The notes below the pieces were generated by a model that saw only the letters and a program-made list of their open reading frames with translations, was not told the origin of the DNA and did not search any database. Below, in pieces: positions 11,325 through 39,056 of a stretch of DNA of 64,000 bases (the first letter of the stretch is position 1; each line of letters begins with the position of its first letter). The position numbers were made by a program, and so were the translations under genes. This stretch comes from a bacterium (GTDB lineage: Bacteria; Planctomycetota; UBA8108; UBA1146): contig JAPOLY010000005.1 in assembly GCA_029976805.1 (NCBI GenBank), forward strand, positions 1,353-65,352. The letters run 5' to 3'.

Positions 11325-14300
11325 TTAAGGACACTGAGGGAACGAATCACAGCTCAGGACACTACCATTCGGATCGACCCCGCATACCGGGAACGGAGCC
11401 GCCGGGGGCGCCCCTCCAGCAAACAGGTATGACAGCAGGCTTACCGTATCCGCAATATTGGTCGCATCGTCATCGTTGACGTCAACCGCTGCAATGCAGA
11501 TCGGAGCTCCACTGCTGAAGAGGTAATCCAGAGAAGCCACGGCATCACTGATGTCGTGAGAACCGTCACCATTGATGTCGCCACGGACCCACTCCTGAAC
11601 GTTGCACTCGTCCGGCTCACCGTTATTGTCAGCGTCGGCACTCGTGCCGGACGCGATATCACAGCTGTCCGGAATACCGTTGGCGTTACAGTCTGCCACT
11701 GTGCCGTTGGCCACTTCACAACTGTCGAGAACGCCGCTGCTGTCACAGTCGTTCGCCGGGTCAGCCGAGATCTGACAGCTGTCCGGAGTCGAATCTCCGT
11801 CACAGTCCGTCTCCAGACCACCCACGAGGTCACAGACGTCCAGAGCACCATTCAGGTTGCAGTCCAGCGCGGCGTTGCCAGCGATCTGGCAGGAGTCGAG
11901 CTGGCCATTGAAATCGCAGTCCGGCGCGCCGGCTGCCAAATCACAGCTGTCGAGCTGACCGTTGCTGTCGCAGTCAGGGCCTGCAGTCTGATCGGCGTCA
12001 CAGTTGTTTGGAATGCCGTCACCGTCGATGTCATCGTCGCAGTCGTCGATGGTTCCGTCCTGGTCAGTGTCAACCTCACAGGCGTCCAGGTTGCCGTCAG
12101 TGTCACAGTCTGCCGCACCGGCAGCGAGATCACAAAGATCGGGCACACCATTGGTATCGCAGTCCGCCACACTGCCGTTGGCAGTGCTGCACTCATCCGG
12201 AATGTTATCGAAGTCACAGTCGATGCTGGTGCCGTTGGCAATGTCCTCTGCGTCCGGAGTTCCGTTGGCGTTGCAGTCGGCCACGCCGGAGCAATCCACG
12301 TCTTCGTATGCGAAGTCATCGATGGCGGCTTCCACGATGGAACCGGCACCAAGGTCTCCGACAATAAAGCGCATTTGCACCGTCGAGGTCAGCAAGACAA
12401 AGTCCGCCACGTTGAAGGAATGCTGGATCCAGCCACCGATGGTGTCCGGCCCAGTAGGACCGAGGAGTTCAACATTGGTCCAGTTGGCCAGGTCATCCGA
12501 AATCTGGATCGTCATGGTGTCGGCACCCGGGCTGGCCCCGGCATTGTTGGAATACCAGCGCCAGTAACTGATCACGGGGCTGCTGGCACCCAGCAGGTCC
12601 ATGACCGGGCTGTAGAGGGTGGTCTCTCCACCGTCGACGTCATTCTCACCCAGGGTTCCGCCCACACTTCCCTGACCGGTGAACCAGCAGTTGGTTCCCG
12701 CTGGGGAGTGATCCGCACCCGGCTGAGCAGTCGTGCCAATCGGTGCACCACGCTCCCAGATACCGGTGGTCGCCGTCGCCGGAGCACCCACGCTCCAGCC
12801 ACTGGCCACTTCGAAATCGGTGGTTTCCTCGGTGAGACCAAAGGCACTGACGCCGGTAGCAAGGGCACCACCTGTGGCTCCCTCAGGGTACGTCACGGTC
12901 TGGCCACCCGTGCTCTCGGCAACGATGTACCAGCCAAAGGTTTCCCCGCAGGGAATCGCCGGGAAGGTCATTTCGTAATTCAGTCCGCCGGTGGAAGCCA
13001 ACGGAATGGCCTGACTCCCGGCAGCGGTTTCCACCTGAAGAGACTCGGTTCCGGCAGCCACTGCCGATCCTGCCAACGGGGTGATGGTCACCGCAAAGGT
13101 TTCTCCACCCAAAGGATTGAAGATGGTTGGGTCGCCATTGGGAACCGCAATCGCCAGTGCAGCAGCCACGTCGATTTCGCAGGGAACCACTCCGGAAGGA
13201 GTATTGCCAACGGAAGCGTTCACTCCGTAAACGTGCACACCCGGCAATGCCGAGCTGTCCGTGTAAGAAGTGGACGATCCTGCAAGACTGGTCAACGGAG
13301 TTCCGTCACGGGTGATCTGAATGAGGTCATAGACTTCACCATTACCCCAGGAGAGATCCACACTCTCACCATTCTGGTTACAGGTGAGGCCAGTCACCGG
13401 AAGGGTGAAATCACCACTTGGCGCCAGAATCTCGACACTGGAACTGCCACCACCGGTGAAGTGATCCAGAGTGGCGGTCACAAGAGTCGGCGGAGCGTTC
13501 GCCACGAAACGGAAGCTGTGCATGGTGCCCCAGCGAATCGCGTGGGCATTCACATTCTGGGCTTCCGTCTGGGTGGACCAGCTCATGGTGCCCGCGCCCT
13601 GATTCGGCGTCCAGGCGAGGTTGCTGTAAGGCTCTCCACTATGGTACTCGGGGTGCGTGGAGTCGACACCGGTCAGGGTCACTCCCCCGGCCAGCGGGAA
13701 CTCAAAGGACTGAACATTGCGCGTCGAATCCATGTTGTAGATGGCATACTCGTAGGCGTGCTGGCCCGCACCCAAATCGGTGACACGGTAACCCATGATC
13801 ACGAGACCGTTCTCGGCGTCGAAGACTTCGACCAGGGTCACTTCAGGATCGAAATCTTGCCAGGCCTGAATTCCCGGCTGCTGACGCTGGGTGGTTCCGG
13901 TCAGGCTCATGTTGCGGTTGCCAGTCTGCCCGAAGGTCACTGTTCGGTAAGAGCAGTTGTTGTGGGAGTTGCCTGCGGCGGAGTCATCGACCGTCACGTA
14001 CTGGCCCTCGACGACGTAAATCGCCCCGGGGAATGCGCCATTGTCGATGTCATTGGTGGCCACCCGAAGTCGCTTGGAGGTGGCGTCGTTGATCAGACCC
14101 GAATTAATGATCGGGTACTGGAAGAGACCATTGGCGACATCAAAGACTTCCGAACGGGGACCAAGGCCACTCTGCTGACCATTCAGCCCGGAGGAGTAGG
14201 GGTCCGAACAGCCCACTCCAAGGAGTGAACCGGTTCCGGGGTTGATGCAACCGCACCCACAGACGTTACCGGTCAGGGCCAGGAAGCCATGCTTCAGCCA

Positions 14301-14621
14301 GCTCATGCCGATCTGTTCAAACTTGCCCTCATGCAGACGGTAAAGGTTCTGTCCGATCACCGGATGCTCGTTGGTGTTGGAAATCCACAGCAGAGGCTCG
14401 GTGCCAATATTGCACGAAGTGGTACCCACGCTGTAGGCGTGAAAACCTCCCGCCGCACCATAGTTGGAGGTGCCCACCAGATCACCGATGATCACATCGG
14501 TTCCGGTTCCACCCACACCTCCCTGGCCAGGATCACAAGGCTGTGCCTGAATCGGTGCCGTAAAAGAAAATGCTCCCAGAATGAGAGTGACGACGAGCGC
14601 CATTTTGCTGGTTTGATACAT
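11325..14621 (-). CDS. large secreted protein with ~12 tandem Cys/Asp-rich (DCxxNGxPDxCD) calcium-binding-type repeats and the C-terminal RGD-dockerin-like/Cys-tail module
   Basis: The start is placed at MYQTSKMALVVTLILGAFSFTAPIQAQ (AGGAG 10 nt upstream), which gives a signal peptide. The central region has repeats such as DCNANGTPDAEDIANG / DCDTNGVPDLCDLAAGAA / DCDSNGQLDSCDLAAGAP. C-terminus WVRGDINGDGSHDISDAVASLDYLFSSG...DVNDDDATNIADTVSLLSYLFAGG...CGVDPNGSVLSCDSFPQCP. Confidence 0.75.
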   Translation of the reverse strand: MYQTSKMALVVTLILGAFSFTAPIQAQPCDPGQGGVGGTGTDVIIGDLVGTSNYGAAGGFHAYSVGTTSCNIGTEPLLWISNTNEHPVIGQNLYRLHEGKFEQIGMSWLKHGFLALTGNVCGCGCINPGTGSLLGVGCSDPYSSGLNGQQSGLGPRSEVFDVANGLFQYPIINSGLINDATSKRLRVATNDIDNGAFPGAIYVVEGQYVTVDDSAAGNSHNNCSYRTVTFGQTGNRNMSLTGTTQRQQPGIQAWQDFDPEVTLVEVFDAENGLVIMGYRVTDLGAGQHAYEYAIYNMDSTRNVQSFEFPLAGGVTLTGVDSTHPEYHSGEPYSNLAWTPNQGAGTMSWSTQTEAQNVNAHAIRWGTMHSFRFVANAPPTLVTATLDHFTGGGSSSVEILAPSGDFTLPVTGLTCNQNGESVDLSWGNGEVYDLIQITRDGTPLTSLAGSSTSYTDSSALPGVHVYGVNASVGNTPSGVVPCEIDVAAALAIAVPNGDPTIFNPLGGETFAVTITPLAGSAVAAGTESLQVETAAGSQAIPLASTGGLNYEMTFPAIPCGETFGWYIVAESTGGQTVTYPEGATGGALATGVSAFGLTEETTDFEVASGWSVGAPATATTGIWERGAPIGTTAQPGADHSPAGTNCWFTGQGSVGGTLGENDVDGGETTLYSPVMDLLGASSPVISYWRWYSNNAGASPGADTMTIQISDDLANWTNVELLGPTGPDTIGGWIQHSFNVADFVLLTSTVQMRFIVGDLGAGSIVEAAIDDFAYEDVDCSGVADCNANGTPDAEDIANGTSIDCDFDNIPDECSTANGSVADCDTNGVPDLCDLAAGAADCDTDGNLDACEVDTDQDGTIDDCDDDIDGDGIPNNCDADQTAGPDCDSNGQLDSCDLAAGAPDCDFNGQLDSCQIAGNAALDCNLNGALDVCDLVGGLETDCDGDSTPDSCQISADPANDCDSSGVLDSCEVANGTVADCNANGIPDSCDIASGTSADADNNGEPDECNVQEWVRGDINGDGSHDISDAVASLDYLFSSGAPICIAAVDVNDDDATNIADTVSLLSYLFAGGAPPAAPFPVCGVDPNGSVLSCDSFPQCP

Positions 14622-14970
14622 TTGTGACGTGCTCCTCTGCATGTCGTTTGTCCGGTTACAGACGATCGAGAACAACTCGACCACTACCCTGATCCCGCCC
14701 GTCACACCCCGCTGAAAATTCCTGACGAGGTGCCACCTTCATGAATACTCACAGACGGCATGGTAATACCTTCGCCCATCATACCACTGGTGACACGAAT
14801 GGCACCGGTTCGCATGCTCTGAATGAGATCGGAAATCTGGTGGGGTTAACCCCGATAAAATCCGTCCGTCTCGGTAATTTTGCCATGAAGGTCCTCTTTA
14901 TTCGGCCAATCCTGTCCTCCTGAGGATGCAAGAGGAGCCAGACTGCCAAAACGAGGATCAGGAATTGAAA

Positions 14971-18683: not shown

Positions 18684-19486
18684 TAGCGATTCTCCTCTAT
18701 CGTCTCTGGCTCATTGGAGCCTCTCCGGGGTAATTCCATGCGAATGGCGTCGGGATCAATCTCGCCCGGCAGGGCTTTTCGAATAGAAACCCTGACCGGT
18801 GGCGGCTCATTTCCATCTTTTTTCCAGGGCAGTACGTCCCCATAAGCAAAATAGTCTCCATCAGGGTAGGGCAATGCCAGCGGATTATCGAGGATTGCCC
18901 ACGGTCTGTGGCTCAGGGAAATCAACTCACCTGTCACCCTTGCCATGAACTCATCTTTTGGCTCAGCACCTTCCGGAGCTCCAGGTGGAGGGTCGAGAAG
19001 CAAAAAACCGGAACCGGTATAGGCAAATCCACAGCGCACCATTTCGCGCTCCATGGGAGCATTGATGATGCAATTTTCGGCTCTGATCCGACGGACGAAA
19101 TCACGGCCCTCTCCATCCTTCACCGGATAATGAAAATGGATGACCAATCTGTCGCCCCCAGTCAAACCACCCAGATCACGCTCTGATTCCGGACTTCGAC
19201 TTTCTTTCACTTCCATTAACATCAGCGCCGTCTGCAGATGCATGGGATCACAATCGACTGCAATCAGGCATTCATGGGACTTTGCTCCCGGAAGATTGAT
19301 CAGATATTCGACAAAACCCTGAGACATGTTGAAAAAGCCATCGAGATGAATCGTCCCAGTCGCCGCTTCAAATTGCACAGCCCCCAGGGCGACGGTTTCC
19401 CCCGGTTGAGACTCTGTTCCGGGAATAAGATCGACCGGGAGCCCACTCAAGGCTGTCGCCATGATGATGATGAGGCAACCGTTCAT
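18683..19486 (-). CDS. hypothetical secreted protein, first gene of a 4-gene minus-strand operon
   Basis: The start is taken at MNGCLIIIMATALSG, which is signal-like. No family was recognised. It ends with a TAATG overlap into the next gene. Confidence 0.4.
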   Translation of the reverse strand: MNGCLIIIMATALSGLPVDLIPGTESQPGETVALGAVQFEAATGTIHLDGFFNMSQGFVEYLINLPGAKSHECLIAVDCDPMHLQTALMLMEVKESRSPESERDLGGLTGGDRLVIHFHYPVKDGEGRDFVRRIRAENCIINAPMEREMVRCGFAYTGSGFLLLDPPPGAPEGAEPKDEFMARVTGELISLSHRPWAILDNPLALPYPDGDYFAYGDVLPWKKDGNEPPPVRVSIRKALPGEIDPDAIRMELPRRGSNEPETIEENR

Positions 19487-19823
19487 CTCTTCCCTTTCGC
19501 ATTTGATCAAATGCACAAAGTTCCCCCGAAGGGTTCTCGCGCATGAAATGGAAACTCTGGGTCCATAATCGCAAAATCCACGCCGTCTACCAGTCCCCCG
19601 GACCTCATTTCACAGACTCCCAGCCATATAGACGGGTCTCGATCAACAGCCGTTCCGGCAATAGGTTCCTGAGATCGGGCTTCCTTGCCACCCTGAGGGC
19701 CTCAACTTGCGTTTTGCAGGCGATTTGTATAGCCTTCTCAGGTGCCGACCGATTCGACCCTCGCTCAAATCAACCGGTTTTCCGGGGACATGGTTTCCCG
19801 GAATGCCCCTGCTTCGGAGACTG

Positions 19824-20975
19824 ATGGACCCCAAAAGGAACACTTCCCAGCCGGAATCTTCCTCCAGATGGAGCATCGTCCTCGAGGTCTCCGCCGGCAT
19901 CGTCCGGCTTCCCGTATCCCGTATCGATTCCAGGGAAGTACTCGTCGATTCGACGATTCGTCTTCAGGTGGGACAACGCTACGAATTGATCGTTGAGAGA
20001 CCGGATGGTCACGCTGAACTGATCCATGCGGAAGTTCTGCGCAGAAATGATGCAGGCCTTCTTTTACGCTGGAAACCGACTCACCCCCGGGAGCTCTCTG
20101 CACTCGAGCGTCTCTTTGGGGATGAAGAACAAAAAGCGCCCGAAAGTGGTGATCTCGAATCTGCATTGAGATCCCGCTCCCGATTGGTTCGCACCTCTGC
20201 CATCGCAGCACAACGGGACAGTGTCCGTGTTCTCAATCTTTCCGCCATCAAGGAATTGATTCAGGCCTCTGTGGATGAGGTGATCCGCGAGAGTGGACGC
20301 TCACTCGGTGAGGAGGAACTGCGCAGGCTTCGAGAAGAGTCTGAAAAAAGTTTTCAGGAAAAGCTGGCCGAGTTCCAGAACGAGAATGCAGACTTGCACT
20401 CTCACATCGAAAACCTGAATGCCAAACTGCAAAGAACCCAGGAACTCCTCGGCAGCGAAAAAGAACGGGAAGTTGCCCGCGACCGATTCGCATTGACACG
20501 CGAGAGCCTGCTGGAGCTGGAGTCGACGATGGATCGAATCGTCGACAAGGCGGCCGGTGCCCACCACCTTCCTGAAGAGGTGGGCCAGGAGATTCGGGAA
20601 GTGATTCAAAATTCTCTCGATCTTGAACGCTCCAGAGCGACAGATCGTGAAGAGAAAACCAGAAGTGAGAACATCGAGCTCCTCGAACGGAAAGTGCAGC
20701 GTCTGGCGAAGAATCTGGATGCTGCAAAAACCCAAAGAGACGAGGCTCTGGAAACCGCCCGCAGACTGGATCGCCGTGACTCCAATACGTCAGGAACAAG
20801 CACTTCCATTCCGGCGTTTTCATCCAGCCCGGCAGAAGACCCCAGTGGTCGTCGAAGGGCGCTGTTGGCCGACCTCGTTTCCGAAAATCGCCAACTTCGA
20901 CAGCAAATTGTAAAACAAGTACCTTCAGATCCCAAACGGGGGCATGATCCCCAGATTGAGAAGGATCTTGCCTGA
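19824..20975 (+). CDS. coiled-coil protein with an N-terminal beta-rich, PilZ-like(?) domain
   Basis: The start is set at MDPKRN (GGAG 5 nt upstream). The N-terminal ~110 aa is beta-rich. Residues ~150-380 are heptad-like, charged and coiled-coil (EELRRLREESEKSFQEKLAEFQNENADLHSHIENLNAKLQRTQELL...). The PilZ assignment is weak. Confidence 0.5.
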   Translation: MDPKRNTSQPESSSRWSIVLEVSAGIVRLPVSRIDSREVLVDSTIRLQVGQRYELIVERPDGHAELIHAEVLRRNDAGLLLRWKPTHPRELSALERLFGDEEQKAPESGDLESALRSRSRLVRTSAIAAQRDSVRVLNLSAIKELIQASVDEVIRESGRSLGEEELRRLREESEKSFQEKLAEFQNENADLHSHIENLNAKLQRTQELLGSEKEREVARDRFALTRESLLELESTMDRIVDKAAGAHHLPEEVGQEIREVIQNSLDLERSRATDREEKTRSENIELLERKVQRLAKNLDAAKTQRDEALETARRLDRRDSNTSGTSTSIPAFSSSPAEDPSGRRRALLADLVSENRQLRQQIVKQVPSDPKRGHDPQIEKDLA

Positions 20976-21018
20976 GCCATACTCGGCTTTCTGAAGAGTA
21001 AATCTGAGAGGACGATCG

Positions 21019-22047
21019 ATGAGTGAAACCGTATACGTGGGCATGGATCTCGGTACCAGCCGAACCTCCATCACTACTTCCACCGGAGTCAGAACCACGG
21101 TGTGGTCATATGTGGGCTACGCTCAGGACCACGTCAGCAAAAAGTTGCTCGGCGGCAGAGACAAGGTCTTCGGTGAGGAAGCGGTTCAAAACCGCATGGC
21201 GGTCGATCTGGTCCGCCCCCTCGACAAGGGTGTGATCCGTGAGGACGAGAATGCCAAGCGGGCAACCCGTGACCTGATCGAGCATATTCTTGAACAGGCT
21301 GAGATTCCTTCCGGAAGCACTGTCTATGGAGTCATCGGTGCACCGGCGGAAGCCAGCGTCGGATCCAAGGCCCACATTCTTGAAGCCGCATCCGAATTCA
21401 TGGACAGCATCATTGTCTGCTCTGAACCCTTCTCCGTAGCATACGGATTGGACTTCCTTTCCGACACACTCGTGATCGATATCGGAGCCGGAACCGTCGA
21501 CCTGTGCAGAGTGCATGGAACGATGCCGAAAGAAGACGACCAGAGAACCCACCATTTCGGCGGAGATGCCATCGACCAGCGCCTCTTCGACCTGATTCAG
21601 GAGAAGCACCCGGAAGCCCAGTTCTCGGTCAACATGGTGCGTGAAATCAAAGAGAACTTTGCCAGTGTGGGACGCCAGCAGGATGCAGTCATGGCCACCT
21701 TCCCGGTCAAAGGCAAGCCGACTGAGTTCGACATCACCGACCAGGTTCGTGAAGCCTGCATGGGTATCGTCCAACCGACGGTCGAAGCTCTCCAGGATCT
21801 GATTGCTACCTACGACCCCGAGTTCCAGCAGAAGATGCGCAACCATGTCCTCCTTGGTGGAGGCGGTAGTCAGATCACCGGTCTGGCCCGCGCGATGGAA
21901 GAAGCCCTCGTCGAGTACGGTGGAGGCAAGGTCAAGACTGTGGAAGAGCCACAATACGCTGGATCCAATGGTGCCTTGCGTATCGCTCTCGACATGCCGG
22001 AAGAGTTCTGGAAAGAGTTCATGGACAATCAAAAGGAAAATGCCTGA
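21019..22047 (+). CDS. MamK-family actin-like filament protein
   Basis: Actin-fold phosphate-1 motif VGMDLGTSRT. Extended similarity to MamK throughout (YVGYAQD, GAPAEAS, CSEPFSVAYGLDFL, LVIDIGAGTVDLCRVHG, EKHPEAQFSVNMVREIKENFASVG, LLGGGGSQITGLARAMEEAL, NGALRIALDMPEEFW). Confidence 0.75.
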   Translation: MSETVYVGMDLGTSRTSITTSTGVRTTVWSYVGYAQDHVSKKLLGGRDKVFGEEAVQNRMAVDLVRPLDKGVIREDENAKRATRDLIEHILEQAEIPSGSTVYGVIGAPAEASVGSKAHILEAASEFMDSIIVCSEPFSVAYGLDFLSDTLVIDIGAGTVDLCRVHGTMPKEDDQRTHHFGGDAIDQRLFDLIQEKHPEAQFSVNMVREIKENFASVGRQQDAVMATFPVKGKPTEFDITDQVREACMGIVQPTVEALQDLIATYDPEFQQKMRNHVLLGGGGSQITGLARAMEEALVEYGGGKVKTVEEPQYAGSNGALRIALDMPEEFWKEFMDNQKENA

Positions 22048-22068
22048 ACCACTTTCTCCGCAAAACAA

Positions 22069-22108
22069 AAGAGGCCGGAAGCGATTTTCGCTTCCGGCCT
22101 CTTTTTTT
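22069..22108. terminator. rho-independent terminator (bidirectional)
   Basis: GAGGCCGGAAGCG-ATTT-TCGCTTCCGGCCTC followed by T7, between convergent genes. Confidence 0.7.
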
Positions 22109-22126
22109 GTGACGAGAAGATGTGAT

Positions 22127-22963
22127 CTAGAGTGCTTCGCCGATCTTCGGTTTCGGAACAACGGTTTTATCCCCGGCAAGCCATGAACGGATCTCCCGAG
22201 CCTGGACCTTTCGCAAGGTAGGCTCAGCCTCCGCATCGAAAACGAAGTTGCCTGGAACCTTCGCACGTCTCTTGAGCCCGCCCCACGCAGCCTGGCGAAC
22301 GACTTCATCGGGGTCATCCAGAGCACTGGCCAAGAGGTCTAGGGAGCTCTGACGCGCATCCTCGGCGAATCCACAAACACACAAAAAGCGAACTTCTGAA
22401 TCTCGCTCGACGATAAAGCGATCCTGCAACGCATCAAACGCCACAGGAACGTTCATCGTCAGCAAAATCGAAGCGGCAGATCGGCGAGCCGTGACATTTC
22501 CCTCTGCAAGAACTGCAACGACAGGAGAGAGGGCATCGCTGCCATATTCGAGAAGGGCCGCCTCTATCAAATTGTCATCGACGACATTGCCTTCAGCCAG
22601 CATGGAGATCAGACGGGGCAATGCACGTTCATCTCCCTCTCTGGCCAAAATCATACAGATCACCCGTTTGGTACGGGCTCCAATAAAAGGGTCATCGAGT
22701 TCAGCGGCCAACAGGTTTCGCGTGATGATGGGAGCTTTGCTGAGGCTGAGAAGGATCCGGTCGAGAGCCCGCTTTTGAATGCTCTCATCGTAAGAGCCGA
22801 GATTCGGGATCAGGGTCGTATTGCGGATGTCCTCAAGAACATCTTCACGATCCGGTGTTTTATCGGGAGTCGAGCAGCCCACAGACAGTAGTACTGTGAG
22901 AGCCAATATCCAGCACAGTGAATACTGCACTCCTGTGAAGCCCTTGTCTCCGTCGACCATCGC
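22127..22963 (-). CDS. HEAT/PBS-lyase-repeat lipoprotein
   Basis: The start is taken at MVDGDKG...LTVLLSVGCS (lipobox). Repeated alpha-helical HEAT-like units (LISMLAEGNVVDDNLIEAALLEYGSDALSPVVAVLAEGNVTARRSAASILL). Confidence 0.55.
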   Translation of the reverse strand, partial: AMVDGDKGFTGVQYSLCWILALTVLLSVGCSTPDKTPDREDVLEDIRNTTLIPNLGSYDESIQKRALDRILLSLSKAPIITRNLLAAELDDPFIGARTKRVICMILAREGDERALPRLISMLAEGNVVDDNLIEAALLEYGSDALSPVVAVLAEGNVTARRSAASILLTMNVPVAFDALQDRFIVERDSEVRFLCVCGFAEDARQSSLDLLASALDDPDEVVRQAAWGGLKRRAKVPGNFVFDAEAEPTLRKVQAREIRSWLAGDKTVVPKPKIGEAL

Positions 22964-22995
22964 AAACCGCCTTTCGGCTGAGCTACGCAAACGGA

Positions 22996-25482
22996 TCAAA
23001 GCCCCTGAACCGGTCTGCTGGCAGAGGTGTTGAGATCTTCCCAACGCTCATCCAGAGTCTGAAGGCGCCCACCCAACTGATCGAGGGTCACCGTTCTTCT
23101 GGCAAAAGCAGAAAGGTCGTCCTCAAGGATGCCCAGCGGAATTTCACCGGAGATCATGGCCTCCTGAAGACGAACACTGAGGAACGTTGCAACCGACAGG
23201 AAATCAACCCCACGCTCGGACATTTTGGTCAGCAACTCAGAATATCCCAACTGAGTCAGGTCCCCTGCTGAGGGATACAGAATCTGATACTGCTCCTCGA
23301 GCAGATTCCTGAACTTGCCGTGCTGGTTCGCTTCACGTCCAAGTCCATCAATGAAGACAGCAAAATCCTGAAGGCTGTCCTTGTCGAAAGTCCTCAACAA
23401 GGAAATGGTTTCGTCTGAAAGGTCAGTTTCACCCCTCATGACGACCAGGTCCCCCTTCTCATAGAAGGTCTTCAACTTGTCGAAGGAAAGGCTGACCGCA
23501 TAGGGACTCGTGGGAACCACGATTTCCCTGCGAGGGGACACCACGTCATCGTAATCAAGGTCAGGATTCAGGCTTTTGATGTTTTCGACCAGAATTGCCG
23601 CCGCCTGGAAGAAGAGCTGACGCTCGTTCTTGGACCAGGTCGCAACCGACTTCTCCGGATGCCTGAGTTTGAGCATGCTCAGTTTCTCGGTCGCTTCCGG
23701 CAGATAATCTTCAAAAATCTTCAGGCGGCTGATGAGTTCGCGTTTCTTGACGATGCTCAGCAAGGTCAAGTCGACCACTTCAGCGCGGGAGAATCCCTCC
23801 ACCGGCGTTCTGCTGATGGGATCGAGTCCGACAAGGTCACGCCCTTTGAGAATGTAGCGATCATTGAAGAGCACACTGTTGCGAGTATCGAAGTGTCGAC
23901 TCTCTTTCGGAGTGGAAATGGGATCGACCCCATCTTCCGAAAGAATGTGCGGAGTCAGAACGATGATGATTTCAGAACGCTGTTTCTGGGAACTCTTGCG
24001 TCCGAAAAATCCTCCAATAACCGGAAGGTCGCCCAATCCGGGAATGGAATTTTTGGTATCGAATTCACTTTCCTTGATCAGACCACCAAGGATCAGGGGC
24101 CGATGGTTTTTAACCCTTGCCTGTCCCCTGAAATTCCGGGTCGCCACCTGCGGGATTCCCAGCAGGTCCTCCTCGAAGACCCGCTGTCTTCCTTGAAGAT
24201 TATTGACGGTGATATCGACCAGCATCGAGACTTCGTTTTCGTCATTACCACTGATTCGAGGCTTGACGACCAGAGTCGTACCGATGTGCTCAGTTCCAAC
24301 CTTGTTGGCATTCTCGACAAAGTTTCCACCACTGACGTCACGGACGACGTCGGTAGAGATGAAGGTTGGAATCTTTTCTCCAAGGTGAAGCTGACTCTGG
24401 CGATCGTCCAGCGCGTACAACTTGGGACGTGCTTTGATAATCGCGTCACCGTTGCGAACCAGTGCATGAACACCAGCAAGAAACTGGGAGGACAGAGCCT
24501 CGGCCGTGTCATCAAAGAGGAAAGAGAGACCCGATTGCTGAATGGGATTGAAATTGCTGCTGATCTCGGGAAGGGGTTCTCCCGGCAGAGGAGAGGCGAA
24601 ATTCACTACCGAATTGCGTTTTTCAAAGGCGAGTGTATCGACTCCCAGATCGGAAAGAGCGTCCGCTTCCAGTTCGATGATCTGCACCTCGATCATGATC
24701 TGCCTTGCGGGCACATCGATCATGGCAATGAATTCTTCAATCCGTTTCAGATCCTCATCCGTGCCCACCATCAGAATACGATTTCGTGTTTCCGTCGATG
24801 GTGATTCCTCAAAGGTCAGAGAGAGAGAAGCGTCTTCGATTCCAGTGCCCAACTTGACAGGGGGCAGTGAAATCGGGTCGACATGCGGGATCTCCAGAAC
24901 GTATGGGTATTCCGGAAGATCCCAGGATTGGAGCATCGTTCCGCTGGCAGCCTCATACTTTGAGTAGACCGCTTTCTCATATTTGCGGGTGATGGTCCTG
25001 TTTCCCTGTTTGACTGCGTCAGTCTTGACTTCCTCGGTTCGGTGATAGACCTGGCAAACCTTGCTGGCTGCCAGCGACTCCAGAACCAACTGGATTCCGG
25101 CATATTTGACCGTGATCGATTCCTGCTTGAGTCGATCCCGAATTCCCACCTGTTCAAAGCTGCGAATCGTTCTGATCAGCGATTCTGTAATTTCCTTTGT
25201 GCCATTGATCATCAGAGAGTTCTCACGGCCAGCAACACGACTGATGGTCTTGTCGTCGACAAACTTTTTCAGCCCTTGAGTGTCATTCAAAAACTGAAAC
25301 ACCTCATCGGTTTCAGCATGAAAAAGCTCGACAAAGGTGATGTTGGGGACCTGAGCGTCGGCAACTGGGACTTGGGCAAAGAAGGCCACGCACAAAGTGA
25401 GCACGATCCAACCGAAATTGAATCTTTCCCGTCTCTTACGACCGGGGTTGCTGACAAATGCGGACTTTTTGGAACGGTCCAT
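22996..25482 (-). CDS. secretin-family outer-membrane channel protein (GspD/PilQ-like) with a long N-terminal extension
   Basis: C-terminal secretin domain (LLGIPQVATRNFRGQARVKNHRPLILGGLIKE...IPGLGDLPVIGGFFGRK...SEIIIVLTPHIL) and a secretin-N-like domain (ILMVGTDEDLKRIEEFIAMIDVPARQIMIEVQIIEL). The start is at MDRSKK with an AGGAG/AAGGAAG RBS and a signal peptide (WIVLTLCVAFFAQVPVADAQ). Confidence 0.75.
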   Translation of the reverse strand: MDRSKKSAFVSNPGRKRRERFNFGWIVLTLCVAFFAQVPVADAQVPNITFVELFHAETDEVFQFLNDTQGLKKFVDDKTISRVAGRENSLMINGTKEITESLIRTIRSFEQVGIRDRLKQESITVKYAGIQLVLESLAASKVCQVYHRTEEVKTDAVKQGNRTITRKYEKAVYSKYEAASGTMLQSWDLPEYPYVLEIPHVDPISLPPVKLGTGIEDASLSLTFEESPSTETRNRILMVGTDEDLKRIEEFIAMIDVPARQIMIEVQIIELEADALSDLGVDTLAFEKRNSVVNFASPLPGEPLPEISSNFNPIQQSGLSFLFDDTAEALSSQFLAGVHALVRNGDAIIKARPKLYALDDRQSQLHLGEKIPTFISTDVVRDVSGGNFVENANKVGTEHIGTTLVVKPRISGNDENEVSMLVDITVNNLQGRQRVFEEDLLGIPQVATRNFRGQARVKNHRPLILGGLIKESEFDTKNSIPGLGDLPVIGGFFGRKSSQKQRSEIIIVLTPHILSEDGVDPISTPKESRHFDTRNSVLFNDRYILKGRDLVGLDPISRTPVEGFSRAEVVDLTLLSIVKKRELISRLKIFEDYLPEATEKLSMLKLRHPEKSVATWSKNERQLFFQAAAILVENIKSLNPDLDYDDVVSPRREIVVPTSPYAVSLSFDKLKTFYEKGDLVVMRGETDLSDETISLLRTFDKDSLQDFAVFIDGLGREANQHGKFRNLLEEQYQILYPSAGDLTQLGYSELLTKMSERGVDFLSVATFLSVRLQEAMISGEIPLGILEDDLSAFARRTVTLDQLGGRLQTLDERWEDLNTSASRPVQGL

Positions 25483-25696
25483 TTTCTTCCTTGCTCCTGC
25501 GAGTGAGACTGCGGGTCCACTTCGACAGATGGTCAGCCGATCTCTACACGCCAGAGAATAAACGGAGTTTCCCATTTTGAGTGGGAATCGACTCTCCAGC
25601 AGGCGATTTGTTTCGGCATTTCTACGAGAGTCGGCAGAGCCCGGATTGGGGCCCCTGCACAGGGTCGCAGTGCTCAAGATATCGATTATCGGCACG

Positions 25697-27886
25697 TTAT
25701 CTTCCATTCTCAACCAGAACCCAGCCACTCCAGCCAGAAACACGGTCAGTTGTCGATTTATCGCGAATCGACCTGCAGGCCTCTCTGAGAGCCTCTGCAG
25801 GCGAAATTCGGGCTCTGGCTGAGTCGATGAGATGGAGCGTTATTTGACGGGTCACTTCATCTTCGACAGGCCACAGTGACCCCAGAATCCCCTGACATCC
25901 CGCTTCCAAAACTGCTCGAGGAAAGCCTGCCAGATCATCAGATCCGGGCCCCCCAGCCAGTGCAGTCTCACAACCTGTGAGTAAAACGAGGCGACAGTCG
26001 GAAAGATTCCAGCCAGCCAAATTTCTCGCCAACAACTTTCCATCCGTGAAATTCTGGTCCGGAGTCAATCGAAGGGATGAGGATTGGGGGTCGCGTGGGT
26101 CGAAGTCCCCATGACACGCCAGGTGCAAGACCTTCTTGCCATGAAGTTGATCCCCAAGCCCGGTCACGGTCGCAGCCCCACCCGAGAGAACCATCGAGCT
26201 GGCCAATTTTTTGGCGACCGTCTCCCCCTCTGCTCTGGCACCGGGCAACCGGGCTTTTTCCGGGACATCGGGATCCACCAGAGACAACCAGTCTTCCGCT
26301 GGCAGGTATGAAAGCTCCCGTGAAGCGGACTTCAGATTCGGCAGCAGACTGACCGCGGTTCGATCCATCAGCGATCGTCCTGAGACGGGCAACATTCCCC
26401 AGGGAATTCTTCTCAACTCGTCCAACGGTACCAGCAACAATCTCTCAGTGACCGGCACCCCCGACCCGAACAACTTTGAGGAAATCCACGCCGCAGATTC
26501 GAGGTCTTTACCGCGACTGGAGTGAAGTCGGTTTATGAAGCCGACCAACTCACCCTTTTCACAATCCACAAGGCTCAACTTCCATAAACCTGCGTGGGTC
26601 GTCCATGTCAGCAATCGGGTTCCACAGTTCACCATGACCTGAACCGTGAAATCATCTCCCGCTTCCACTGCGAGAGCCTCGATCTGTTTGACATCAGGAG
26701 GGACTTCACCAGGATTGCGCACCCGCAGAAATTCTGAAGCATGCAGGGAAGCGAGGACTTCTCCGGATTGTGCCAAGAGTTCCGTCAACAGGAATGCGGG
26801 CTCTCGACGCTGGAACATGGCGGCGTGATCGGAACTGTATCGCAAGCGAATCTGTTCCACGGTCGCCACAGCAAGCCTGGCGTGCTCAATGGCGAGCGGG
26901 TATTCGCTCCGGAATTGATAAACTTTTGCCAGAGCCAGATCAGTCTTCCAGAGCGTCTCCAGATCACCCTTCAACTCCCGGGCAGATTCCACTGCCGTTC
27001 TCGTTTCTGTGAGCCAGCCTCTCGCTGCGGCGGTCTGTGATATTTCCACCAATGCCGCCGCAGCCAAAGCCCTGTCCCCGCTGGCTGTGGCTTTGTTCAA
27101 TGCACTGCGGGCATCATCCAACGATTGGATCAGGGCTTGCCGGCTTTCACCGGCATCGGAACTGCTCGAACTTTCTTCCCGTGCTCTTTTCGCTCTGTCA
27201 ATCAAGGCTCTCGTTTGAACCGGCGATCCTTCGGGAGCCAATTCAAAAGCGCGTGTGAGATCTCTTTTCGATCGGGGACCCTGAACACGATCAATCCTTG
27301 CAAAGACATCGAGAACGGAGGCATTCAACCGATACCACTCCGCTTCTTCTTCACGGTTCGTAGCGAAAGCCTTCAGTTCCTTCAGTTCCCGATAGGCAAC
27401 TATGGGATTTCCATCCCGCAAGTTTTTTGAGACCCGGTTCATGACCTCTTTGCGGCTTCCGCCGGTCGGATACCAGGGTTTCTGGTTCCAGTTTTGGATT
27501 GTCAGAAGATCGATCAAATCTCCCGACTCATTCCAGATTCTGGTGACGACTTGACCTTCAGGTACTCGACCGGGATCAGGCCCCCAAAGTTCCTCACCAC
27601 TGATTCCCAGATTCGCTTCCTTCCCATCCACATAGAAGGAAGCGAGACTGATTTCTGACTCTGCAGTTTTGAGGAGGACTTCCACACGACGGTCATCCCC
27701 GGATTCAGGTAAGTGAATATTGAAGAGCTCGCCCTCGATCAACGGTCGGTCGCCAGACAGTTCATCGATCAGTTGTGAAACAGACTGTGCATGTGAAGGG
27801 CTCGAAAATGCCACCAGAATGAGGCATGAGAAGAAAACCGGGGCTGAGCATTTCAGCAGATCCAAGAGGGTTGGACACCTGTTCAA
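25697..27886 (-). CDS. CHAT-domain (caspase-like) peptidase with an N-terminal TPR-like helical region, probably secreted
   Basis: C-terminal CHAT domain with His (HLACHGDF) and Cys (LVLLTGCETA) dyad. Helical repeats upstream. A signal-like hydrophobic segment (CSAPVFFSCLILVAFSSPSHAQ) is reached only from TTG starts near 27886/27865, so the exact start is uncertain. The ORF as drawn extends to 28015. Confidence 0.65.
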   Translation of the reverse strand: MNRCPTLLDLLKCSAPVFFSCLILVAFSSPSHAQSVSQLIDELSGDRPLIEGELFNIHLPESGDDRRVEVLLKTAESEISLASFYVDGKEANLGISGEELWGPDPGRVPEGQVVTRIWNESGDLIDLLTIQNWNQKPWYPTGGSRKEVMNRVSKNLRDGNPIVAYRELKELKAFATNREEEAEWYRLNASVLDVFARIDRVQGPRSKRDLTRAFELAPEGSPVQTRALIDRAKRAREESSSSSDAGESRQALIQSLDDARSALNKATASGDRALAAAALVEISQTAAARGWLTETRTAVESARELKGDLETLWKTDLALAKVYQFRSEYPLAIEHARLAVATVEQIRLRYSSDHAAMFQRREPAFLLTELLAQSGEVLASLHASEFLRVRNPGEVPPDVKQIEALAVEAGDDFTVQVMVNCGTRLLTWTTHAGLWKLSLVDCEKGELVGFINRLHSSRGKDLESAAWISSKLFGSGVPVTERLLLVPLDELRRIPWGMLPVSGRSLMDRTAVSLLPNLKSASRELSYLPAEDWLSLVDPDVPEKARLPGARAEGETVAKKLASSMVLSGGAATVTGLGDQLHGKKVLHLACHGDFDPRDPQSSSLRLTPDQNFTDGKLLARNLAGWNLSDCRLVLLTGCETALAGGPGSDDLAGFPRAVLEAGCQGILGSLWPVEDEVTRQITLHLIDSARARISPAEALREACRSIRDKSTTDRVSGWSGWVLVENGR

Positions 27887-28052
27887 AGACAGGTCATCTC
27901 TTGAATCAATTTGTGGCAGAACGGCCACTTTGGAAAAGGGCTTTTTCACTTCCCACAGGGAAGTGATCTTTGATCGGTAAATTTGGCGACTCCGAGATTG
28001 CTGCCGGGGCGGCAACCCGACACACCAAATATGCCGGAATCACAAAAAAACT

Positions 28053-38907: not shown

Positions 38908-39056
38908 TGTGTCGTAACTGTTTTATTAACCCGCCTGATCGTTCAGGCAGGAAGTTTTGATTTATCTCTATGGGAGGTGTGTCCCCTGCACCCGTCAAAA
39001 GTGCACGTGGATTCTTCCATGGAACATGGATTCCCCTATTTTGCCCGGGAGAAGTT

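What the first reader, a model, noticed from the sequence alone, without database searches (positions are those of the whole stretch)
19824..22047. MamK-family actin homolog paired with a coiled-coil partner in a genome with no other magnetosome genes in view
The 342 aa protein aligns along its whole length with MamK. All actin-fold motifs are present, as are MamK-specific stretches such as CSEPFSVAYGLDFL and EKHPEAQFSVNMVREIKENFASVG. It lies immediately downstream, on the same strand, of a 383 aa protein that is mostly coiled-coil after a small beta-rich N-terminal domain. No mamAB-type genes are nearby. An actin-like filament plus a coiled-coil adaptor is the minimal architecture of a positioning cytoskeleton. 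Its cargo here is unknown. Outside magnetotactic bacteria, MamK-like proteins are largely uncharacterised.
Basis: partly seen in the sequence, partly recalled or inferred. Interest (0 to 1): 0.6.

Follow-up and report, generated by a model that had tools for sequence, protein, structure and literature searches.

The report
MamK-like actin with conserved PilZ-fold partner
An uncultured marine planctomycete carries a two-gene operon for an actin-like filament protein related to the magnetosome protein MamK, but not a magnetosome gene, together with an undescribed helical partner; the pair is kept together in dozens of species, so it is probably a dedicated cytoskeletal module whose task is unknown.

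Summary
Window 21019-22047(+) encodes a 342 aa actin-fold ATPase. Its best matches are MamK: NCBIfam MamK 403.7 bits against a cut-off of 400, and PDB MamK at E 7e-76, aligned end to end. Window 19824-20975(+) encodes a 383 aa partner with an N-terminal beta-barrel followed by long helices. The 64 kb window contains no magnetosome genes.

New findings:
- The actin belongs to its own tight clade (100% bootstrap), separate from the magnetosome MamK clade and from BeeR. At least 459 genome stretches carry it, almost all from Planctomycetota MAGs.
- The partner is an unannotated family. It has a PilZ-fold N-domain without the c-di-GMP motifs, a variable linker and a conserved helical core of about 260 aa.
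- The partner lies directly upstream on the same strand in 63 of 74 informative loci. In 7 more, a protein carrying only its C-terminal module lies downstream. The flanking genes are not conserved.
- The operon ends in a strong hairpin terminator.

Best reading (inferred, not shown): an ATP-driven filament with a dedicated partner that binds it and couples it to a signal or a cellular site. This is a new variant of the bacterial actin-plus-partner theme. The closest precedents are MamK, saltatorellin and BeeR.

The parts
19824..20975 (+). Partner gene (383 aa). PilZ-fold N-domain at about aa 17-98, a short linker, then a conserved helical core at about aa 105-365. The core ends in the module I-x-LLERK-V-x-RLA ... 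RD, and then RRRALLADLVSENRQLR.
   Evidence: ORF; no Pfam or NCBIfam hit; AF2 secondary structure; Foldseek hits to PilZ domains of Alg44, BcsA, YcgR and PA4608; core conserved at about 250 bits in distant loci; homologues all 'hypothetical protein'.
19873..20117 (+). PilZ-fold beta-barrel plus C-terminal helix (aa 17-98) of the partner. RxxxR is absent and D/NxSxxG is degenerate (RIDSREV).
20976..21018 (+). 43-nt intergenic spacer with GAGAGGA 8 nt before the actin ATG. It contains no terminator-like hairpin, which is consistent with co-transcription.
   Evidence: The spacer is 3-200 nt in most related loci.
21019..22047 (+). Actin-fold ATPase (342 aa) of the MamK-like superfamily, in a distinct planctomycetal clade.
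22054..22118 (.). Inverted repeat with 31-nt arms, 87% complementary, a 3-nt loop and a flanking T-run. It starts 7 nt after the actin stop codon and lies between convergent genes. It is a likely bidirectional intrinsic terminator that closes the two-gene operon.
   Evidence: I1. The consensus scan missed it.

Best explanation
This is a chromosomal two-gene operon (partner, then actin, then terminator) of an uncultured marine Planctomycetota bacterium.

Shown:
- Gene 2 encodes an actin-fold ATPase with all nucleotide-binding and catalytic motifs. Its closest characterised relative is MamK.
- It belongs to a separate, strongly conserved clade found in several hundred genomes, mostly Planctomycetota, and is not associated with magnetosome genes.
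- Gene 1 encodes an undescribed family made of a degenerate PilZ-fold N-domain, a linker of variable length and a conserved helical core of about 260 aa.
- The two genes are co-inherited as a unit across species, including as duplicated pairs within one MAG.

Inferred:
- The actin polymerises with ATP into dynamic MamK-type filaments.
- The partner binds these filaments through its conserved C-terminal helical module. This is the only part retained in every gene-order variant.
- The partner self-associates through its long helices.
- Its N-terminal PilZ-fold domain acts as an input or targeting domain. One lineage has two receiver domains in its N-terminal region, where no PilZ-like domain was detected.
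- Filament assembly or attachment is thereby tied to a signal or to a cellular site.

The cargo or cellular process served is not encoded next to the pair and remains unknown.
For: Identity of the actin:
- NCBIfam MamK 403.7 bits (cut-off 400), BeeR 223.6 (cut-off 530), MreB 65 (cut-off 293).
- PDB MamK at E 7e-76 with one 1-aa gap; BeeR at 2.8e-40 with many indels.
- Motifs invariant in the family.
- Even a weak AF2 model ranks MamK above BeeR above MreB.

Separate clade:
- 38% identity to AMB-1 MamK, against 66-99% within the family.
- In the NJ bootstrap, family plus P0172 gets 100%, the MamK core 79% and BeeR 97%.

Spread: 459 confirmed stretches in species-representative genomes, and the best 80 are nearly all Planctomycetota MAGs.

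Pairing:
- The partner HMM hits the ORF directly upstream on the same strand in 63 of 74 informative loci. In 3 more the upstream hit is weak or truncated, and in 7 a protein with the C-terminal module lies downstream.
- Flanks are unrelated outside the close clade.
- 148 neighbouring proteins fall into 113 Pfam families, none recurring more than 5 times.
- Actin and partner distances correlate, r = 0.86.
- Four MAGs carry two pairs.

Partner anatomy: PilZ fold, motifs absent, two REC domains in the L029 partner.

Operon signals: SD motif, no internal terminator, strong hairpin after the actin gene.

Not a magnetosome locus.

Precedent: a MamK-like protein of a non-magnetotactic planctomycete forms filaments in E. 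coli and in M. gryphiswaldense (10.1101/817700).
Against: - No experiment or complex prediction links the two proteins physically. Operon conservation and correlated divergence are also expected from shared descent.
- The heptad test was not significant and the partner model has pTM 0.26, so dimeric coiled-coil formation is unproven.
- One locus with ample upstream DNA (L074) has no detectable partner.
- The PilZ-fold domain lacks known ligand motifs, so a 'signal input' role is speculative.
- Filament formation by this clade was not tested, and orthology to saltatorellin could not be checked.
- The tree is distance-based (NJ) and its deep branching is unresolved.
Confidence: 0.6

Rival explanations
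1. The partner is mainly a regulator of filament dynamics (a nucleator, bundler, stabiliser or turnover factor, as MamJ/LimJ are for MamK) rather than an adaptor to a cargo or site.
For: The conserved helical core is long, about 260 aa, and co-diverges with the actin. No third conserved gene that could be a cargo lies next to the pair. Sensory-type N-domains (PilZ fold, REC) fit a regulated switch.
Against: Nothing here separates regulator from adaptor, and the two roles are not exclusive. The N-domain is kept in most lineages, which suggests a second binding function.
Confidence: 0.25
2. It is an ordinary magnetosome mamK, and the magnetosome gene cluster lies elsewhere in the genome.
For: The NCBIfam MamK model is passed, though barely. 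Magnetosome clusters have been reported in some Planctomycetota MAGs (PMC7602337, as listed; 10.1101/682252).
Against: The window is 64 kb of housekeeping genes with no mam-type families. About 60 related loci have no recurrent mam-type neighbours. The clade is separate from MTB MamK. The gene occurs in 459 species-level genome stretches, far more than the few planctomycetal MTB reported.
Confidence: 0.03
3. It is a divergent MreB that works in cell-wall elongation and shape, as most database annotations say ('rod shape-determining protein').
For: Pfam MreB_Mbl is passed, 70.5 bits against a cut-off of 27. Most source annotations call the homologues MreB or rod shape-determining protein.
Against: NCBIfam MreB models score 53-65 bits against cut-offs of 293-366. 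Identity to E. coli MreB (sequence recalled from memory) is 21%, against 38% to MamK. No mreC, mreD, rodA or pbp2 genes lie next to it in the window or the related loci. Foldseek ranks MamK and BeeR above all MreB structures.
Confidence: 0.05
4. It is a ParM/Alp-type DNA segregation system (actin plus adaptor plus centromere) on a mobile element.
For: A two-gene actin-plus-partner layout resembles parMR. There are weak Pfam hits to ParM and Alp7A domains.
Against: The partner has no DNA-binding domain and lies upstream of the actin, not downstream. There are no iterated repeats upstream. The context is housekeeping chromosomal genes with even GC. Sequence conservation is at the level of a phylum, not of a plasmid.
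Confidence: 0.03
5. The two genes are neighbours that are co-transcribed but functionally independent.
For: No direct interaction evidence exists.
Against: Adjacency survives across more than 60 species while every other neighbour changes. It also survives gene-order inversion and duplication of the pair.
Confidence: 0.04

Closest known systems
MamK (magnetosome actin-like protein; PDB 5LJV, 5LJW, 5JYG)
   Same: Best sequence and fold match. It aligns end to end with one 1-aa gap and keeps all ATPase motifs, including the SEPF catalytic Glu and DxGxG. It passes the NCBIfam MamK-family model.
   Different: Only 38% identical to AMB-1 MamK. It sits in a separate clade. No magnetosome genes occur in the window or the related loci. 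Its partner is unrelated to MamJ, MamY or the Mad coiled-coil proteins as far as Pfam and NCBIfam can tell.
Saltatorellin (MamK-like actin of Saltatorellus, Planctomycetota; bioRxiv 10.1101/817700)
   Same: A MamK-like actin in a non-magnetotactic member of the same phylum. It forms filaments heterologously and its function is unknown.
   Different: The paper does not contain the words 'coiled' or 'PilZ'.
BeeR (Verrucomicrobiota three-stranded tubular actin; PDB 8R2N; PMC11929497)
   Same: A MamK-related actin of non-magnetotactic PVC bacteria with unknown function. It is the second-best PDB match, E 2.8e-40.
   Different: BeeR model score is 223.6 against a cut-off of 530. Identity is 32%, with several indels. 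The window protein lacks BeeR's hallmark disordered N-terminal extension of 30-50 aa. The BeeR clade is separate, with 97% bootstrap.
PilZ-domain adaptor proteins (PF07238; e.g. Alg44, YcgR, MapZ, and non-binding PilZ proteins)
   Same: The partner's N-domain has the PilZ beta-barrel plus helix fold. Foldseek gives E 4e-4 to 1e-3 and target-normalised TM of about 0.6 to Alg44, CeSA and PA4608.
   Different: There is no Pfam PilZ hit. RxxxR is absent and D/NxSxxG is degenerate or replaced by EISxxG. Fusion to a conserved helical core that is linked to an actin gene has not been described, to my knowledge and in the searched literature.
Coiled-coil plus actin network of deep-branching MTB (Mad20/23/25/26 with MamK/Mad28; PMC12748827)
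   Same: Conceptually parallel: helical or coiled-coil proteins that work with MamK-type actins.
   Different: That system lies in a magnetosome context. No sequence relation to the partner was detected or could be tested here.

Membership tests
MamK family (NCBIfam NF040964) | Whole-protein HMM score at or above the curated cut-off | tested here: met
   403.7 bits against a cut-off of 400, a borderline pass.
MamK family | Full-length collinear alignment with structurally solved MamK, and conserved ATPase motifs | tested here: met
   E 7e-76, residues 5-336 against 12-343, one 1-aa gap. Motifs invariant.
Magnetosome MamK (orthologue in the strict sense) | Encoded within, or together with, a magnetosome gene cluster (mamAB-type genes) | tested here: not met
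   No mam-type Pfam families in the 64 kb window, and none recurrent among 148 neighbours of related loci. The rest of the genome was not available.
Magnetosome MamK (orthologue in the strict sense) | Phylogenetic placement inside the clade of MTB MamK proteins | tested here: not met
   The window family forms its own clade with 100% bootstrap. The MamK core (AMB-1 MamK, MamK-like, P0187) is a separate clade with 79%. The tree is NJ only and the deep order is unresolved.
MamK family | ATP-dependent polymerisation into double-stranded, non-staggered filaments | not testable with these tools
   Needs biochemistry or cryo-EM.
BeeR (NCBIfam NF053558) | HMM score at or above the cut-off, and a disordered N-terminal extension of 30-50 aa | tested here: not met
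   223.6 bits against 530. The protein starts 4 residues before the first strand.
MreB (NCBIfam PRK13927, TIGR00904) | HMM score at or above the cut-off | tested here: not met
   65 against 293 bits and 53 against 366 bits. Only the broad Pfam MreB_Mbl model is passed.
Saltatorellin | Orthology to the Saltatorellus ferox Poly30 MamK-like protein | not testable with these tools
   The sequence was not retrievable.
PilZ domain (PF07238) | PilZ fold: a six-strand beta-barrel followed by a helix | tested here: met
   AF2 strands 17-83 and helix 88-98. Foldseek top hits are PilZ domains.
PilZ domain (PF07238) | Pfam HMM match | tested here: not met
   No Pfam family at E <= 0.01.
PilZ domain (c-di-GMP receptor type) | RxxxR and D/NxSxxG c-di-GMP-binding motifs | tested here: not met
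   No RxxxR before the barrel within the real N-termini. The window has RIDSREV, and some lineages have EISxxG.
ParMRC-type segregation module | DNA-binding adaptor encoded downstream of the actin, plus centromere-like repeats | tested here: not met
   The partner is upstream and has no DNA-binding domain. No direct repeats in 19450-19900.

The most novel reading that the evidence does not exclude
The pair is the core of a widespread actin-based cytoskeleton of FtsZ-less Planctomycetota, and of some Verrucomicrobiota, of the saltatorellin type. In this reading a signal-responsive partner (PilZ-fold or receiver input) controls where or when MamK-like filaments act, for example in division, budding, membrane invagination or shape change. 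The magnetosome MamK would then be one specialised offshoot of a broader, older family of organelle- or membrane-positioning actins.
Probability: 0.15. Interest if true: 0.85.

Novelty: new variant of a known kind. Interest (0 to 1): 0.55.

Why it matters
Planctomycetota lack FtsZ, and the way they divide and shape their membranes is unresolved (stated in PMC11032199). This actin-like protein is 65-99% identical across hundreds of mostly uncultured members and is locked to a dedicated, previously unannotated partner, which makes it a concrete candidate for a cytoskeletal function.

The result also shows that public annotation of this clade is inconsistent and misleading. Most homologues are called 'rod shape-determining protein MreB' and a few are called 'MamK family'. 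It further shows that mamK-based marker approaches for magnetotactic bacteria must exclude this large clade.

The partner defines a new architecture, PilZ fold plus conserved helical core. That gives an experimental handle through interaction mapping, localisation and ligand tests.

Tried and rejected
- **Third homologue search.** I ran it with a broadened partner profile (A3), hoping to find named organisms. Word-sharing coiled-coil candidates swamped it, and it returned only 49 'hypothetical' proteins.
- **Rosetta-stone fusion.** Long MamK-like proteins of 700-1232 aa exist, but their N-terminal extensions do not match the partner HMM and have no Pfam domain.
- **AF2 of the actin.** The 17-sequence alignment gave a poor model, pLDDT 62. 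I used its Foldseek ranking only as a consistency check.
- **Coiled-coil test.** A crude heptad-periodicity score did not exceed shuffles, so I call the region 'helical' and treat 'coiled coil' as unproven.
- **Saltatorellin.** I looked for the primer-derived termini (MTDITTD......YWEQLK) among the fetched proteins and ORFs and found nothing.
- **Link to the secretin.** I considered a type IV pilus or secretin link, because a secretin, a HEAT lipoprotein and a CHAT protein lie downstream. I rejected it because that synteny is confined to the closest clade, L001-L019/L020.
- **ParMRC-like system.** Rejected: no repeats and no DNA-binding domain.
- **Consensus promoter and terminator scan.** It gave nothing above the shuffled expectation. 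The real terminator hairpin was found by the repeat search.
Full report
**1. What is at the coordinates**

Two same-strand ORFs occupy 19824-22047. The downstream one is 21019-22047, 342 aa, with an ATG preceded by GAGAGGA. The upstream one is 383 aa from the ATG at 19824. A mechanical ORF extends to a TTG at 19707, but homologues from other genomes begin at the position of the ATG. The two ORFs are 43 nt apart, with no hairpin between them.

Seven nucleotides after the actin stop codon there is an inverted repeat at 22054-22118. It has 31-nt arms, is 87% complementary, has a 3-nt loop and is flanked by a T-run. It lies between this gene and the convergent gene at 22127-23044(-). The anatomy is therefore a two-gene operon closed by a likely bidirectional terminator.

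A longer antisense ORF (21106-22326, 406 aa) overlaps the actin gene. It is a by-product of composition, because only the sense frame has homologues.

**2. The actin-like protein**

- Pfam gives only superfamily-level hits: MreB_Mbl 70.5 bits, Salactin, Actin.
- NCBIfam is more discriminating: MamK family 403.7 bits (cut-off 400), BeeR 223.6 (cut-off 530), MreB 65 (cut-off 293).
- Against all PDB sequences, the only hits are MamK and BeeR. MamK (5LJW, 5JYG, 5LJV) scores E 7e-76 over residues 5-336 with a single one-residue gap. BeeR (8R2N) scores E 2.8e-40 with several indels.
- The phosphate-1 (DLGTS), SEPF, DxGxGT and GGGGS motifs are invariant in a 17-sequence family alignment.
- An AF2 model from that shallow alignment was poor (pLDDT 62). 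Its Foldseek ranking was nevertheless MamK, then BeeR, then MreB, then eukaryotic actin.

**3. It is not the magnetosome MamK**

- Identity to Magnetospirillum magneticum AMB-1 MamK is 38% over trimmed columns. That is no higher than to many other MamK-like cluster representatives. Identity within its own family is 66-99%.
- An exhaustive HMMER search of 1.84 billion cluster representatives found 172 clusters at E <= 1e-30.
The window family plus one Verrucomicrobiota-labelled representative (P0172) forms a clade with 100% bootstrap.
- The clade containing AMB-1 MamK, the AMB-1 MamK-like protein (P0244) and P0187 has 79% support. BeeR and its relatives have 97%. A clade of long forms (700-1232 aa) has 100%. 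The order among these clades is unresolved.
- Names retrieved for representatives confirm that the MamK-core neighbourhood holds annotated magnetosome proteins. Examples are P0211 'Magnetosome protein MamK' and P0192 'MamK family ... Deltaproteobacteria bacterium TL4'.
- Pfam scans of 37 ORFs across the 64 kb window (the two focal proteins plus 35 others) show EF-G, IspG, GluRS, RF2, SHMT, TrpRS, menaquinone and LPS enzymes, a secretin, a CHAT protein and similar. None of the hallmark magnetosome families appears. GC content is even across the window.

**4. Distribution**

A scan of one genome per GTDB species with two family-specific peptides (TVWSYVGY, VIGAPAEAS) returned 459 confirmed stretches. 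The 80 best (62-99% identity) are nearly all Planctomycetota MAGs from marine, freshwater, groundwater and sediment samples. A small group is labelled Verrucomicrobia.

L001-L003 are 99% identical to the window protein, so the window is a marine Planctomycetota MAG-type genome of the 'TMED53/MCMED-G47' kind. Source annotations for the family are inconsistent: mostly 'rod shape-determining protein (MreB)', occasionally 'MamK family actin-like protein'.

**5. The partner**

The partner has no Pfam or NCBIfam hit and no sequence relative in PDB. All database homologues are 'hypothetical protein'.

- *Model.* AF2 with a 25-sequence alignment gives a six-strand beta-barrel (aa 17-83) plus a helix (88-98), followed by helices covering about 111-365. 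The model has pLDDT 70.6, above 90 in the long helices, and pTM 0.26, as expected for an elongated protein.
- *Fold.* Foldseek against PDB matches the N-domain to PilZ domains: Alg44, BcsA, CeSA, YcgR, PA4608, MapZ and MotI. The best E-values are about 1e-4 to 1e-3, and target-normalised TM is about 0.6.
- *Motifs.* The c-di-GMP motifs are missing. There is no RxxxR ahead of the barrel. At the D/NxSxxG position the window has RIDSREV, and some lineages have EISxxG. It is thus a PilZ-fold domain of the non-canonical kind. PilZ proteins of that kind are known, from my own knowledge, to act as protein-protein adaptors.
- *Helical core.* The helical part is not generic coiled coil. HMM positions of about 105-370 score around 250 bits in distant genomes, where the N-domain scores only 10-30 bits and a linker of up to about 250 aa intervenes.
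- *Conserved signatures*: VRVLNxSTIKxLIQxAV, ERKRLLEEAExxFxERL, ADQFTVSDAG, LDxEREKI, IxLLERKVxRLAxSL...ERD and, after a Gly-rich break, DDPxKxRKLALLKELxxxNRxxR.
- *Coiled coil.* A crude heptad test did not beat shuffles. I therefore describe the region as helical and coiled-coil-like.

**6. The pairing is conserved**

An HMM of the partner was searched against all ORFs of the 80 loci. Six loci have too little upstream DNA to judge. The other 74 break down as follows:

| Situation in the locus | Loci (of 74) |
|---|---|
| Strong partner directly upstream, same strand | 63 |
| Weak or contig-truncated match upstream | 3 |
| 466-aa protein with only the C-terminal module directly downstream (Verrucomicrobia-labelled group L043-L048 and L050) | 7 |
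| No partner detected (L074) | 1 |

- Beyond the closest clade (L001-L019) the flanking genes are unrelated.
- 148 neighbouring proteins from the distant loci fall into 113 Pfam families. None recurs more than five times and none is a magnetosome hallmark.
- Four MAGs carry two copies of the actin. In three of them both copies have a full partner upstream; in the fourth, L062's partner ORF is cut off by the contig end.
- Pairwise divergences of actin and partner core correlate, r = 0.86, with 0 of 999 Mantel permutations reaching that value. This is expected from co-inheritance and is not proof of contact. The actin evolves about half as fast, with mean p-distance 0.28 against 0.56.
- In one lineage (L029, a 2.16 Mb MAG chromosome) the partner ORF is 1149 aa and carries two receiver domains (Pfam Response_reg, best stretch at aa 213-324) upstream of the core.

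**7. Mechanism**

Shown: an intact actin-type ATPase closest to MamK; a dedicated, co-inherited partner with a PilZ-fold N-domain and a conserved helical core; operon organisation; and no magnetosome context.

Inferred:
- The actin forms ATP-dependent, dynamic MamK-type filaments. The near-gapless collinearity with MamK and the filament-forming MamK-like protein of Saltatorellus (10.1101/817700) make this likely.
- The partner binds the filament through its C-terminal helical module, the only part present in all gene-order variants.
- Its long helices mediate self-association.
- The exchangeable sensory-type N-domain (PilZ fold, or REC) supplies regulation or targeting.

Whether the partner is an adaptor to a cargo or site, or chiefly a regulator of filament dynamics, cannot be decided here. 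No candidate cargo gene is linked.

**8. Comparison with known systems**

- It works like MamK with MamJ or the Mad coiled-coil proteins (PMC12748827), or like other bacterial actin-plus-partner pairs.
- It is a member of the MamK-like superfamily, with a borderline pass of the NCBIfam model. It fails the two tests for a magnetosome MamK, context and clade.
- It is not BeeR: the score is below cut-off, there is no N-terminal extension, and it sits in a separate clade.
- It is not MreB.
- Saltatorellin is the most probable close relative, but this could not be tested.
- MamK homologues in non-magnetotactic genomes had been noted before (10.1101/682252).
- The partner family and the conserved pair appear undescribed. 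The searched literature returned nothing that combines PilZ, actin-like proteins and Planctomycetota, and the Saltatorellota preprint contains neither 'coiled' nor 'PilZ'.

**9. Verdict**

The finding is a real and widespread two-gene cytoskeletal module, mainly planctomycetal. It is a new variant of the bacterial actin-plus-partner theme, with a new partner family and an unknown cellular role.

Interest is moderate to fairly high (0.55). The existence of non-MTB MamK-like actins is known. The tight, phylum-scale coupling to a PilZ-fold helical partner is new, and it makes function testable in a phylum whose FtsZ-less cell biology is an open problem.

Noticed in passing
Proteins P0183-P0210 (not in the window): A well-supported clade (100% bootstrap) of MamK-like proteins of 520-1232 aa. 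The actin domain is C-terminal, and the N-terminus is a 190-900 aa E/K/S-rich extension that starts with a short conserved helical segment. The extension has no Pfam domain and no match to the partner HMM. It might be a fused, MamJ-like acidic adaptor.
   Followed up: partly
L029:4496-7945 (CP070682, 'bacterium bin676' chromosome): The partner ORF here is 1149 aa and carries two response-regulator receiver domains upstream of the conserved helical core. This suggests that phosphorylation input replaces or supplements the PilZ-fold domain. The ORF start was not verified.
   Followed up: partly
L043-L048 and L050 (MAGs labelled Verrucomicrobia or 'Akkermansia'): The gene order differs here. In most of these loci a 1185-aa DUF7133/HEAT/cytochrome-c protein and a 530-aa unknown protein lie upstream of the actin. 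A 466-aa Arg-rich protein carrying only the partner's C-terminal module lies directly downstream of it, followed by a LysM/DUF1376 protein. The actin is still 64% identical to the window protein. The 'Akkermansia muciniphila' and 'Kuenenia' record titles look like mislabelled MAGs.
   Followed up: partly
L022/L025, L023/L033, L026/L059, L021/L062: Four MAGs each carry two paralogous copies of the actin on different contigs. In three of them both copies have a full partner upstream; L062's partner ORF is cut off by the contig end. The unit therefore seems to duplicate as a whole.
   Followed up: partly
Partner N-domains of many loci (e.g. L055, L036, L068, L026, L028, L025, L030, L027): A C-x-C motif (e.g. 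QCVC, QCHC, DCTC, PCDC, DCQC, ECHC, TCWC) sits on or just before the first strand of the PilZ-fold domain in many lineages. It is absent in the window's own clade. A metal or redox role is possible.
   Followed up: no
window 21106-22326 (-): A 406-aa antisense ORF overlaps the whole actin gene and is longer than it. A naive longest-ORF gene caller would pick the wrong strand here, as my first greedy pass did.
   Followed up: yes
window 22127-28015 (-) and L001-L020: A HEAT-repeat protein (305 aa), a 915-aa secretin with a long N-terminal region, and a 772-aa CHAT-domain protein form a conserved block convergent to the actin operon. The block is found only in the close clade.
   Followed up: partly
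L042, L053, L058, L060, L063, L065, L075, L077, L080 (downstream of the actin, opposite strand): A recurring trio of small genes: a roughly 300-aa protein with a weak CAP_N-CM hit, a roughly 155-aa protein, and a roughly 230-aa FHA-domain protein. In some loci a 1300-1800-aa protein follows. This is lineage-specific synteny next to the pair.
   Followed up: no
window 38970-45569 (+): A 2199-aa protein with FG-GAP repeats and a rhamnogalacturonan-lyase-like beta domain. Two large proteins have little or no Pfam match: 11325-14705(-), 1126 aa, with none, and 8562-11147(-), 861 aa, with only a sub-threshold YNCE beta-propeller hit. Homologues of these two recur near the actin pair in several distant loci (L023, L028, L031, L035, L059, L072).
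   Followed up: no
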